This document shows positions 5,106 through 5,415 of a stretch of 8,237 nt of DNA, in pieces. Each line of letters starts with the position of its first letter. Position 1 is the first letter of the stretch. Below the pieces are notes generated by a model. The model was not told the origin of the DNA. It made no database searches and saw only the letters and a program-made list of their open reading frames with translations. Position numbers and translations under genes: made by a program. Source of the DNA: a virus (taxonomy: Duplodnaviria; Heunggongvirae; Uroviricota; Caudoviricetes); IMG/VR virus record IMGVR_UViG_2660238318_000005; one strand, given 5' to 3'.

Positions 5106-5181
5106 GGCCCTTTAGCTCAGTGGTGAGAGCGAGCGACTCATAATCGCCAGGTCGCTGGTTCAAATCCAGCAAGGGCCACCA
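5106..5181 (+). tRNA. tRNA with CAU anticodon, most similar to tRNA-Ile2 (lysidine type, ileX/ileZ-like)
   Basis: Cloverleaf by hand: acceptor GGCCCTT/AAGGGCC, anticodon loop CUCAUAA, T-loop TTCAAAT, 3' CCA encoded. Resembles E. coli ileX as I recall it; Met versus Ile2 cannot be settled from the anticodon alone. Confidence 0.75.
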
Positions 5182-5183
5182 AC

Positions 5184-5259
5184 CGCCACTAGCTCATCAG
5201 GAAAGAGCGTCAACCCTTTAAGTTGAGTGTGCGAGGTTCGAGTCCCCGGTGGCGGTCCA
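5184..5259 (+). tRNA. tRNA-like gene with atypical anticodon loop (CCUUUAA: UUU anticodon with C33); identity uncertain
   Basis: Acceptor CCGCCAC/GTGGCGG, D-arm GCTC...GAGC, anticodon stem TCAAC/GTTGA, T-loop TTCGAGT, 3' CCA. The loop lacks the near-universal U33. Confidence 0.55.
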
Positions 5260-5261
5260 GT

Positions 5262-5337
5262 GCCGACTTGGCTCAGTAGGTAGAGCAACTGACTTGTAAT
5301 CAGTAGGTCACCAGTTCGATTCCGGTAGTCGGCACCA
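5262..5337 (+). tRNA. tRNA-Thr (UGU)
   Basis: Acceptor GCCGACT/AGTCGGC, anticodon stem ACTGA/TCAGT with loop CUUGUAA, T-loop TTCGATT, 3' ACCA. Confidence 0.65.
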
Positions 5338-5340
5338 TAT

Positions 5341-5415
5341 GCGGGCATCGTATAATGGCTATTACCTCAGCCTTCCAAGCTGATGATGCGGGTTCGATTC
5401 CCGCTGCCCGCTCCA
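5341..5415 (+). tRNA. tRNA-Gly (UCC)
   Basis: GCGGGCATCGTATAATGGCTATTACCTCAGCCTTCCAAGCTG...; anticodon loop CUUCCAA; matches E. coli glyT-type tRNA-Gly as I recall it. Confidence 0.75.

What the first reader, a model, noticed from the sequence alone, without database searches (positions are those of the whole stretch)
5106..5415. Four-tRNA cluster downstream of Q, including one with a non-canonical anticodon loop
Hand folding gives tRNA-Ile2-like (CAU), an atypical tRNA, tRNA-Thr (UGU) and tRNA-Gly (UCC), tightly packed with 2-3 nt spacers. The second has loop CCUUUAA, so C replaces the near-universal U33, with UUU at the anticodon positions. It may be a degenerate copy, a Lys-like tRNA with an unusual loop, or a diverged Arg tRNA. 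Stx-type phages carry tRNAs (ileZ-argN-argO) at this position for rare codons in late genes; this set is different.
Basis: partly seen in the sequence, partly recalled or inferred. Interest (0 to 1): 0.55.

Follow-up and report, generated by a model that had tools for sequence, protein, structure and literature searches.

The report
Prophage tRNA cassette with remodelled anticodon
A lambdoid prophage carries four tightly packed tRNA genes, three ordinary rare-codon helpers and one derived from a phage arginine tRNA, and that fourth gene belongs to a family that keeps the tRNA body but lets the anticodon loop change freely, so its role is not ordinary decoding and is still open.

Summary
ARAGORN and Rfam both find four tRNAs at 5106-5415. 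The second has the loop CCUUUAA, which means C33 and anticodon UUU.

- **tRNA 1** is identical to the Stx-phage ileZ.
- **tRNAs 3 and 4** are copies of the host genes thrU (1 mismatch) and glyT (identical).
- **tRNA 2** is not related to the host lysT (52% identity). It is a homologue of the phage argN/Arg(UCU) tRNAs (84-86%), changed by U33C and C35U.

The cassette has its own conserved promoter, and about 15% of complete E. coli genomes carry this allele family.

Phage codon usage explains the Ile, Thr and Gly tRNAs, whose codons (ATA, ACA, GGA) are 2-3x enriched. It does not explain a UUU tRNA.

Across prophages, this second slot keeps a conserved tRNA body. Every acceptor-stem pair varies, yet all stay paired. 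The anticodon loop is far more variable:
- Arg UCU or UCG;
- C33-UUU;
- at least 21 short loops of 5-6 nt that annotation misses.

Best reading (0.4): selection acts on the tRNA-shaped body, for example for RNase P processing of the cassette, and not on the codon read. Main rival (0.3): a Lys(UUU) substitute that resists nucleases such as PrrC, PARIS AriB and P2-OLD. No experiment exists for either.

The parts
4218..4907 (+). Late antiterminator Q gene (context: the cassette lies just downstream)
   Evidence: Pfam PF06323 Phage_antiter_Q, E=3.7e-91
4896..4924 (+). Promoter-like site overlapping the end of Q; candidate late promoter pR'
   Evidence: TTGCAA-17-TATATT, 9 of 12 matches. This is a consensus match only. 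The 4927-5000 stretch gives weak, sub-threshold isrK/isrJ hits.
4975..5000 (+). GC-rich hairpin followed by a T run; candidate tR'-type intrinsic terminator
   Evidence: flags the hairpin on the minus strand. On the + strand, read directly, it is AAAACCCGC-CCACAA-GCGGGTTTT followed by two more T (TTTTTT in all).
5068..5096 (+). Sigma-70 promoter of the tRNA cassette (TTGCAA-17-TATTAT, then a GC-rich discriminator CCTGCGCCC; the start site is inferred a few nt before 5106)
   Evidence: Both hexamers and the 17-nt spacing are kept in register in more than 25 upstream sequence variants (about six clearly divergent types) whose spacer sequences differ.
5106..5181 (+). tRNA-Ile2 type (anticodon CAU), identical to the Stx-phage ileZ
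   Evidence: PGAP calls it tRNA-Ile.
5183..5259 (+). Slot-2 tRNA of the argN family, loop CCUUUAA (C33, anticodon UUU), with an A51.C63 mismatch and U73
   Evidence: PGAP calls it tRNA-Lys.
5262..5337 (+). tRNA-Thr(UGU), a copy of host thrU with one difference (A9G)
5341..5415 (+). tRNA-Gly(UCC), identical to host glyT
5419..5548 (+). Strongly structured region with two long hairpins just downstream of the cassette; role unknown
   Evidence: MFE -49.2 kcal/mol, z = -4.4, 0 of 200 shuffles fold as well. The first hairpin is kept through a compensating TC->CT / GA->AG swap in related loci (read).
5708..5923 (+). P21-type holin S (context: the first late gene after the cassette)
   Evidence: Pfam PF04971, E=1.4e-35

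Best explanation
The locus is a compact tRNA cassette with its own promoter, in the late region of a lambdoid prophage of E. coli or Shigella.

Slots 1, 3 and 4 are ileZ, a thrU copy and a glyT copy. They are ordinary decoders that supply AUA, ACA and GGA, codons the phage uses 2-3x more often than the host.

Slot 2 (5183-5259) descends from the phage tRNA-Arg lineage (argN / Arg-UCU). Its anticodon loop was remodelled by U33->C and C35->U.

I think it is most likely no longer selected as a decoder. Across prophages this slot accepts almost any anticodon loop, while the rest of the molecule is held constant: the acceptor, D and T arms, the anticodon stem and the CCA end. That pattern means selection acts on the tRNA-shaped body.

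The mechanism I favour is inferred, not shown. With spacers of only 1-3 nt, RNase P has to cut at the 5' end of each unit to separate the tRNAs. Slot 2 must therefore stay a good RNase P substrate so that ileZ gets its 3' end and the cassette is processed cleanly.

If the RNA is charged at all, its identity elements predict LysRS. U35 replaces the C35 that ArgRS needs, and the 36-UAA-38 motif for t6A is present. It would then read AAA/AAG, and poorly, because C33 perturbs the U-turn.
For: **Descent**
- Slot 2 is 85.7% identical to the Arg(UCU) allele, which has the same anticodon stem UCAAC/GUUGA, and 84.4% identical to argN.
- It is only 51.9% identical to K-12 lysT.

**Loop variability**
- Three censuses (IMG/VR anchored on the neighbouring tRNAs; IMG/VR targeted at the short-loop class; metagenomes with the whole anticodon arm left free) find CUUCUAA, CCUUUAA, U/A32 variants of CCUUUAA, and at least 21 different loops of 5-6 nt. 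CUUCGAA (argN) appears in the Stx-type cassettes.

**Body constraint**
- Across 30 haplotypes all 7 acceptor pairs vary, yet 100% of cells stay paired, including a G-C to A-U double change.
- In the short-loop class, diversity (pi) is 0.39 in the loop and 0.42 in the upstream DNA, against 0.03-0.05 in the body.

**Relaxed decoding constraint in the UUU alleles**
- Common derivatives carry U8C or a 1-nt deletion in the D stem. They fall below the Rfam threshold and PGAP leaves them unannotated.

**No codon demand**
- AAA is 37 per 1000 codons in the phage against 34 in the host, and AAG is 15 against 12. ATA, ACA, GGA, AGA and AGG are 2-6x enriched.

**Processing**
- RNase P is what separates closely spaced polycistronic tRNAs in E. 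coli (PMC2190699, PMC7049720).
Against: - RNase P does not need the anticodon arm, yet the anticodon stem is conserved at the sequence level, also in the metagenome sample that left it free. Something more than processing may constrain the body.
- The C33-UUU allele family is about 50x more common in complete E. coli genomes than the working Arg(UCU) allele: 798 against 16 genomes. That is odd for a loss of function, since the phage uses AGA/AGG 5-6x more than the host.
- The window's own allele scores as well as argN (44.4 against 43.0 bits) and has a normal 7-nt loop and 5-bp stem, so it could decode.
- No expression, processing or charging data exist.
- Part of the apparent conservation comes from how the search patterns were chosen.
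Confidence: 0.4

Rival explanations
1. Nuclease-proof substitute for host tRNA-Lys(UUU). The slot-2 RNA is charged by LysRS and keeps AAA/AAG decoding going when host tRNA-Lys is destroyed by anticodon nucleases. Its Arg-derived anticodon stem lacks their recognition sites, and C33 sits at the bond that PrrC cuts.
For: - Host tRNA-Lys(UUU) is the target of PrrC, which cuts 3' of U33 (PMC2610378).
- It is also the target of PARIS AriB, which cuts at U36-A-A-U39-C40|A41; U39A abolishes cleavage and A41C reduces it (PMC12409363). P2-OLD cuts it too, at CNG motifs in the anticodon stem (PMC12445682).
- The window RNA has U36-A-A-G39-U40-U41 and no CNG motif.
- Phage tRNAs with the same anticodon and altered stems are proven countermeasures: T5 tRNA-Lys against PARIS, and phage 21 tRNA-Thr against OLD.
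- Other lambdoid phages carry Asn(GUU) and Thr(UGU) in the same place after Q, without any Asn codon bias (PMC3636060). JLK-2012 has a Thr with a shortened anticodon stem.
- Codon demand does not explain a UUU tRNA.
- The thrU copy in slot 3 independently switched to UUU in some cassettes.
- The allele is very common.
Against: - C33 should weaken decoding, and no data show that it blocks PrrC.
- Frequent derivative alleles damage the D arm (U8C, a deletion), which a needed decoder should not tolerate.
- The companion Thr tRNA has the host's anticodon arm, and host thrU gave little or no protection against OLD.
- This reading does not explain the short-loop relatives.
- The constancy of C33-UUU across copies is no greater than shared ancestry would give: 1 of 7 loop sites is variable against about 9 of 70 elsewhere.
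Confidence: 0.3
2. Plain pseudogene. A dead copy of the phage tRNA-Arg that survives only because it sits between selected genes, with no constraint of its own.
For: - It has the lowest score of the four (44.4 bits), plus C33, an A.C mismatch and U73.
- Its diversity is 2-4x that of its neighbours.
- Decayed single copies exist, such as L180 and L152.
- PGAP leaves most variant alleles unannotated.
Against: - Every acceptor-stem change seen in the 30-haplotype set, and every one seen in more than one copy in all samples, keeps pairing; the only breaks are two single copies.
- There are compensatory changes at 3-70, 27-43, 30-40 and 51-63.
- The body is about 10x more conserved than the loop or the flanks.
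- A free-running pseudogene would not concentrate change in the loop.
Confidence: 0.12
3. tRNA-shaped decoy or inhibitor. Slot-2 RNAs bind a host effector or enzyme that targets tRNA without being consumed, and the loop evolves quickly in an arms race.
For: - A conserved body, including the anticodon stem, combined with a hypervariable central loop.
- The short loops keep a frame of C-NNN-R-T or NNN-A-T, which suggests the loop ends are still constrained (read).
Against: - This is purely inferential, and no partner is known.
- Loop variation at about the neutral rate is what lack of constraint would also give.
Confidence: 0.1
4. Ordinary extra tRNA-Lys for codon supply, or still an arginine tRNA with an odd loop.
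For: PGAP and ARAGORN call it tRNA-Lys. A20 in the D loop, which is an ArgRS identity element from established knowledge, is retained.
Against: - AAA and AAG are not enriched in the phage, and K-12 has at least five lys genes in one operon alone.
- C35, the main ArgRS identity element (established knowledge), is lost.
- U33 is conserved in bacterial tRNAs because it enforces the U-turn (PMC13276492).
Confidence: 0.08

Closest known systems
ileZ-argN-argO tRNA cluster of Stx-converting lambdoid phages (for example Stx2a_F349 and the 933W type)
   Same: It occupies the same position downstream of Q, with the same promoter motif just upstream. ileZ is identical. Slot 2 is homologous to argN (84.4% identity, sharing the A51.C63 mismatch and U73).
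   Different: The slot-2 anticodon loop is CCUUUAA instead of CUUCGAA. argO is replaced by captured host thrU and glyT copies, and no stx genes follow.
Phage T5 tRNA-Lys(UUU), which neutralises PARIS (Burman 2024, PMC11464382; Belukhina 2025, PMC12409363)
   Same: A phage-encoded tRNA with anticodon UUU whose positions 39-41 differ from the host's U39-C40-A41, the AriB cleavage site.
   Different: The T5 tRNA is a true Lys tRNA variant with a proven function. The window's RNA has an Arg-family body, C33 and U73, and has not been tested.
Post-Q tRNAs of phage 21, SfI, Sf6 and JLK-2012: Asn(GUU) and Thr(UGU). Phage 21 tRNA-Thr protects against P2-OLD (PMC12445682, PMC3636060)
   Same: The same genomic slot in lambdoid phages. 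The tRNAs match known nuclease targets and codon bias does not fully explain them.
   Different: The window's Thr copy keeps the host's OLD-sensitive anticodon arm. The unusual member here is the UUU tRNA, not Thr.
Host thrU-tyrU-glyT-thrT operon of E. coli K-12
   Same: Slot 4 is identical to glyT, and slot 3 differs from thrU by one base.
   Different: In the phage, tyrU and the 116-nt spacer are gone, and the two genes are joined by 3 nt.
Phage tRNAs with anticodon-loop mutations, proposed to evade tRNases (van den Berg 2023, PMC10264068)
   Same: The general idea that phage tRNAs differ from host tRNAs around nuclease cleavage sites.
   Different: That study did not describe this prophage cassette, a C33 tRNA, or a slot whose loop varies in length and sequence (no matching phage record for the short-loop class).

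Membership tests
Canonical elongator tRNA (Rfam RF00005) | Cloverleaf with a 7-bp acceptor stem, D arm with G18G19, 5-bp anticodon stem, 7-nt loop, T arm with GTTCRA, and a 3' CCA | tested here: met
   ARAGORN and Infernal give 44.4 bits against a cut-off of 29, matching model positions 1-71. There is one A.C mismatch in the T stem.
Canonical elongator tRNA (Rfam RF00005) | U33 preceding the anticodon (the U-turn), with a purine at position 37 | tested here: not met
   The loop is C32-C33-U-U-U-A37-A38, so position 33 is C. A37 is present. U33 is conserved in bacterial tRNAs (PMC13276492).
E. coli tRNA-Lys(UUU) (lysT family) | Anticodon UUU | tested here: met
E. coli tRNA-Lys(UUU) (lysT family) | Sequence homology to lysT, and an A73 discriminator | tested here: not met
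   Identity to K-12 lysT is 51.9%, limited to universal tRNA positions, and the discriminator is U73.
E. coli tRNA-Lys(UUU) (lysT family) | Aminoacylation by LysRS and decoding of AAA/AAG | not testable with these tools
   This needs charging and translation assays.
Phage argN-family tRNA-Arg | Homology, and the position immediately after ileZ in the post-Q cassette | tested here: met
   84.4% identity to argN and 85.7% to the Arg(UCU) allele, in the same slot with a 1-nt spacer.
Phage argN-family tRNA-Arg | Arg anticodon with C35 (UCG or UCU) | tested here: not met
   The anticodon is UUU; C35 has been replaced by U.
Nuclease-evading phage tRNAs (T5 tRNA-Lys type) | Same anticodon as the targeted host tRNA, with substitutions at the nuclease recognition or cleavage site | tested here: met
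   The anticodon is UUU. Positions 39-41 are G-U-U against the host's U-C-A. There is no CNG motif in the stem, and C sits at the PrrC junction nucleotide 33 (sites taken).
Nuclease-evading phage tRNAs (T5 tRNA-Lys type) | Shown resistance to cleavage, and rescue of translation or infection | not testable with these tools
   This needs in vitro cleavage and rescue assays.
tRNA pseudogene | Loss of fold, or no constraint on pairing | tested here: not met
   The acceptor helix is 100% paired although all 7 pairs vary, and there are compensatory changes. Some derived alleles do fall below the tRNA threshold.

The most novel reading that the evidence does not exclude
Slot 2 of the lambdoid post-Q tRNA cassette is an arms-race locus. 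It encodes a tRNA-shaped RNA whose body is fixed but whose anticodon loop is repeatedly re-invented, either to escape or to titrate host tRNA-targeting defences. On this reading the window's C33-UUU allele, the commonest in E. coli, is a stand-in for tRNA-Lys that resists PrrC, PARIS and OLD. The unannotated short-loop relatives would be non-decoding decoys.
Probability: 0.25. Interest if true: 0.8.

Novelty: new variant of a known kind. Interest (0 to 1): 0.55.

Why it matters
Phage tRNAs were long explained by codon supply. Recent work shows that some are countermeasures to defence nucleases that cut tRNA. This cassette sits in about one in seven complete E. coli genomes and mixes both kinds of logic:
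- three rare-codon helpers, two of them captured from the host;
- one Arg-derived tRNA carrying the anticodon of the most frequently targeted host tRNA and a base (C33) that bacterial tRNAs almost never have.

The wider finding is a prophage tRNA slot with a conserved body and a free anticodon loop, including many forms that standard annotation does not see. If it holds up, it points either to a structural or processing role for tRNA-shaped spacers or to a new class of anti-defence RNAs. Either outcome can be tested directly with existing PARIS, PrrC and OLD assays.

Tried and rejected
- **Alternative fold giving a canonical loop.** Neither ARAGORN nor Infernal proposes one. Shifting the register by hand to get U33 with anticodon UUA (an ochre reader) breaks the stem (CAACC against UUGAG). 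Rejected.
- **Single-sequence MFE folding.** It fails to recover the cloverleaf even for the bona fide ileZ and thrU copies, so it says nothing about tRNA 2.
- **Link to the tail-chaperone G/GT frameshift.** The idea was that Gly-UCC and Lys-UUU serve the lambda GGGAAAG site. The related complete phage PhiR47_1 has no such heptamer, or any other tested slippery site, in G. Dropped.
- **Invariance of C33-UUU in all 117 UUU-type copies of the first IMG/VR census as evidence of selection.** The loop shows 1 variable site in 7, against about 9 in 70 elsewhere. That is no more than shared ancestry would give.
- **Flanking diversity as a neutral yardstick for the UUU alleles.** The flanks are mosaic and non-homologous, and my first search pattern fixed part of tRNA 2, so the contrast is inflated. 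I repeated the census with anchors outside slot 2.
- **Literature searches for ileZ/argN/argO.** They returned only noise. No supplementary tables are held for the OLD paper, so I could not check whether its phage tRNA library contained this tRNA.
- **The promoter-like hit at 5329-5356.** It lies inside the Thr and Gly genes and is a chance match.

Full report
**Observation**

ARAGORN finds four tRNA genes on the + strand:

| Coordinates | Anticodon | Rfam bits |
|---|---|---|
| 5106-5181 | CAU | 72.5 |
| 5183-5259 | UUU | 44.4 |
| 5262-5337 | UGU | 72.5 |
| 5341-5415 | UCC | 64.9 |

The Rfam gathering score is 29, so all four pass. The spacers are 1, 2 and 3 nt. The Infernal alignment of the second gene gives the stem UCAAC/GUUGA and the loop C-C-U-U-U-A-A. 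Position 33 is therefore C, the anticodon is UUU and position 37 is A. It also shows an A.C mismatch in the T stem, and the discriminator is U. No tool offered a different fold.

**Context**

Upstream lie genes for a DnaC-like loader, a DnaB-type helicase, a first Q-like protein, DUF968, RusA and a 229-aa Q antiterminator ending at 4907. Downstream lie a P21-type holin, lysis-gene fragments, a lysozyme and an Rz spanin. This is the late-gene junction of a lambdoid prophage.

A promoter-like site at 4896-4924 followed by a hairpin and T run at 4975-5000 looks like a pR'/tR' pair. That is a consensus match only.

A second promoter, TTGCAA-17-TATTAT at 5068-5096, sits directly before the first tRNA, followed by a GC-rich discriminator. 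Both hexamers and the 17-nt spacing are retained in register in more than 25 upstream sequence variants, about six of them clearly divergent, whose spacers differ widely. I therefore take it as a real promoter dedicated to the cassette. Expression was not measured.

**Identity of the four genes**

- **tRNA 1** is identical to ileZ of Stx-converting phages. PGAP calls it tRNA-Ile in hundreds of genomes.
- **tRNA 4** is identical to E. coli K-12 glyT, and **tRNA 3** differs from thrU by a single base, A9G. In the host these two genes are separated by tyrU and a 116-nt spacer. In the phage 3 nt join them.
- **tRNA 2** is unrelated to host lysT beyond the universal positions (51.9% identity). It is 84.4% identical to Stx-phage argN (anticodon UCG) and 85.7% identical to an Arg(UCU) tRNA that occupies the same slot in a sister cassette, Ile2-Arg(UCU)-Thr-Gly, found in E. 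coli and Shigella flexneri.

The Arg(UCU) allele has exactly the same anticodon stem and the canonical loop CUUCUAA. The window's loop differs from it by U33->C and C35->U.

Other differences between the alleles include paired changes that keep helices intact:
- G3-C70 against A3-U70;
- A30-U40 against G30-C40;
- U27-A43 against U27.G43.

**Distribution**

- The whole cluster is present at 80% coverage or more in 601 of 5,426 complete E. coli genomes.
- The UUU/C33 allele family of slot 2 is in 798 genomes: 279 at 99% identity or more, 474 at 95-99% and 45 at 90-95%.
- The Arg(UCU) allele is in only 16 genomes.
- Among GTDB species representatives, the family with this T arm occurs only in E. 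coli and S. flexneri.
- Three sequenced phages carry the full cluster. The PPompW prophages of O157 carry Ile2-'Lys'-Arg(UCU).
- No E. coli genome covers more than 73% of the window. The cassette is base-for-base identical in E. coli ECMA0423 and S. flexneri SFBU1023.

**Codon usage**

I used the annotated genes of the related complete phage PhiR47_1 and a 50-kb sample of K-12 genes. Frequencies are per 1000 codons.

| Codon | Phage | Host |
|---|---|---|
| ATA | 7.6 | 2.4 |
| ACA | 12.8 | 5.4 |
| GGA | 12.8 | 6.0 |
| AGA | 5.8 | 1.2 |
| AGG | 4.3 | 0.7 |
| AAA | 37 | 34 |
| AAG | 15 | 12 |

Codon supply therefore fits slots 1, 3 and 4 and the Arg alleles of slot 2. It does not fit a UUU tRNA. 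The host also has many tRNA-Lys genes: five are listed in one K-12 operon.

**Variation of slot 2**

The first IMG/VR scan left the loop free. It gave 114 CCTTTAA, 2 TCTTTAA, 1 ACTTTAA and 7 CTTCGAA, and no canonical U33-UUU form.

Because that pattern fixed part of the gene, I repeated the census twice. One scan was anchored on ileZ and thrU. The other was a metagenome scan that left the whole anticodon arm free. Three classes emerged:
- the C33-UUU type;
- canonical Arg(UCU) types;
- a third class with a nearly invariant tRNA body and a short, hypervariable loop.

The third class shows at least 21 different loops of 5-6 nt, for example CCAGGT, CAGGAT, TAAAT, TTAAT, CACGGT and CTTGGT. It always sits in slot 2 after the Ile2 gene. 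It falls below Rfam's tRNA threshold, PGAP leaves it unannotated, and no deposited phage genome carries it. In this class, diversity (pi) is 0.39 in the loop and 0.42 in the upstream DNA, against 0.03-0.05 in the body. That contrast is partly affected by the search pattern.

Across 30 slot-2 haplotypes, all seven acceptor pairs vary, yet every one of the 210 cells is a standard pair, including a G-C/A-U double change. The only pair-breaking acceptor changes I saw were two single copies.

Within the UUU type, the damaging changes lie in the D arm:
- U8C in about a fifth of copies;
- a 1-nt deletion in the D stem in the PPompW allele;
- single copies with a D-stem G changed to A or U.

These derived alleles fall below the tRNA threshold.

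**What this means for the window's gene**

What is shown:
- It is an argN-family tRNA gene with a remodelled anticodon loop.
- It sits in a cassette with its own promoter.
- It belongs to a slot where the body, but not the loop, is conserved.

What is inferred from established identity rules:
- The loss of C35 removes the main ArgRS determinant.
- U34-U35-U36 are the LysRS determinants.
- The 36-UAA-38 motif needed for t6A is now present (PMC13276492).
- C33 should weaken the U-turn and therefore decoding.

My preferred reading, at 0.4, is that selection maintains the tRNA-shaped body and not the codon read. The most concrete reason is processing. With spacers of 1-3 nt, the units must be separated by RNase P cuts at each 5' end. 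This is the route shown for closely spaced E. coli tRNA operons (PMC2190699, PMC7049720).

Two observations sit badly with this reading:
- The anticodon stem is conserved too, although RNase P does not need it.
- The supposedly dead allele outnumbers the working Arg(UCU) allele 50 to 1.

**The main rival**

At 0.3, the rival reading is that the RNA is a nuclease-proof Lys(UUU) tRNA. Host tRNA-Lys(UUU) is cut by three known systems:
- PrrC, 3' of U33 (PMC2610378);
- PARIS AriB, at U36-A-A-U39-C40|A41, where U39A abolishes cleavage and A41C reduces it (PMC12409363);
- P2-OLD, at CNG motifs in the stem (PMC12445682).

The window RNA has C at position 33, G39-U40-U41, and no CNG motif. T5 tRNA-Lys and phage 21 tRNA-Thr are proven countermeasures of this kind.

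Other lambdoid phages carry Asn(GUU) and Thr(UGU) at the same post-Q site, with no Asn codon bias (PMC3636060). In some cassettes the thrU copy has itself switched to UUU.

Against this reading:
- the companion Thr here has the host's sensitive anticodon arm, and host thrU gave little protection against OLD;
- D-arm damage is tolerated in common alleles;
- the reading does not cover the short-loop relatives.

Lesser rivals are a decoy RNA (0.1), a plain pseudogene (0.12) and ordinary Lys or Arg supply (0.08).

**Novelty and verdict**

The cluster itself is already annotated in public genomes, so its existence is not new. I found no description of the following:
- the descent of the 'tRNA-Lys' from argN;
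- its C33;
- the capture of thrU and glyT;
- the loop variability of slot 2, including a class that annotation does not see.

I rate it a new variant of a known kind, with moderate interest (0.55). The function is unresolved but readily testable.

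Noticed in passing
Related loci, e.g. L150, L137, L162, L175, L177, L189:2501-2574 (E. coli FAM21845): A class of slot-2 tRNA-like genes with a nearly invariant body but anticodon loops of 5-6 nt. At least 21 different loops were seen, framed as C-NNN-R-T or NNN-A-T. They fall below the Rfam tRNA threshold, PGAP leaves them unannotated, and no deposited phage genome carries them.
   Followed up: partly
L034, L051, L065, L069 and L182 (slot 3 of the cassette): In some cassettes the thrU-derived gene carries G35->U, giving a canonical CUUUUAA loop (anticodon UUU) in a Thr body with A73. 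This is a second, independent switch to UUU within the same cassette family.
   Followed up: partly
L131:504-737 (phage JLK-2012) and L008 slot 3: JLK-2012 carries Asn(GUU)-Thr-Gly after Q. Its Thr has the 3' anticodon-stem strand UCAUC, leaving only 3 base pairs and changing the CAG motif. This resembles the published description of OLD-resistant phage Thr tRNAs. ARAGORN does not call this gene.
   Followed up: partly
window 4896-5000: A promoter-like site overlapping the end of Q, followed about 50 nt later by a GC hairpin and T run, makes a short pR'-to-tR' unit. The 4927-5000 stretch gives weak, sub-threshold matches to the Salmonella prophage sRNAs isrK and isrJ (22.5 and 23 bits).
   Followed up: no
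window 5419-5548: Two long hairpins lie immediately after tRNA-Gly (MFE -49.2 kcal/mol, z = -4.4). The first is conserved in distant cassettes through a compensating swap. Its function is unknown, and no Rfam family matches.
   Followed up: partly
window 5916-7173: Between the holin and the complete lysozyme lie a C-terminal holin fragment (5916-6143), a truncated endolysin (6143-6544) and the C-terminal part of a PHROG of unknown function (6544-7173). These look like remnants of a second lysis cassette and suggest a rearranged, possibly defective, prophage.
   Followed up: partly
window 2862-3278 and 4218-4907: The window has two antiterminator Q genes from different Pfam families (PF06530 and PF06323). 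A DUF968 ORF matching only profile positions 62-169 of 171 and a RusA gene lie between them.
   Followed up: no
window 5270 (tRNA-Thr position 9): The window's Thr copy has G9 where host thrU and most cassette copies have A9. The same G9 occurs in E. coli ECMA0423, S. flexneri SFBU1023 and 7 of 95 IMG/VR copies.
   Followed up: no
L013 and L024, about 650 nt downstream of tRNA-Gly: A further paralogue of the slot-2 family, with a similar acceptor and T arm and an over-long, odd anticodon region. ARAGORN calls it an 82-nt 'tRNA-Val(aac)'.
   Followed up: no
L135 (phage PhiR47_1) 308-1352; L034 10573-10748; L189 2949-3141: Related prophages carry a PanA/PanT toxin-antitoxin pair, a sok antitoxin RNA and an STnc100 sRNA near the cassette. 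None of these is in the window.
   Followed up: no
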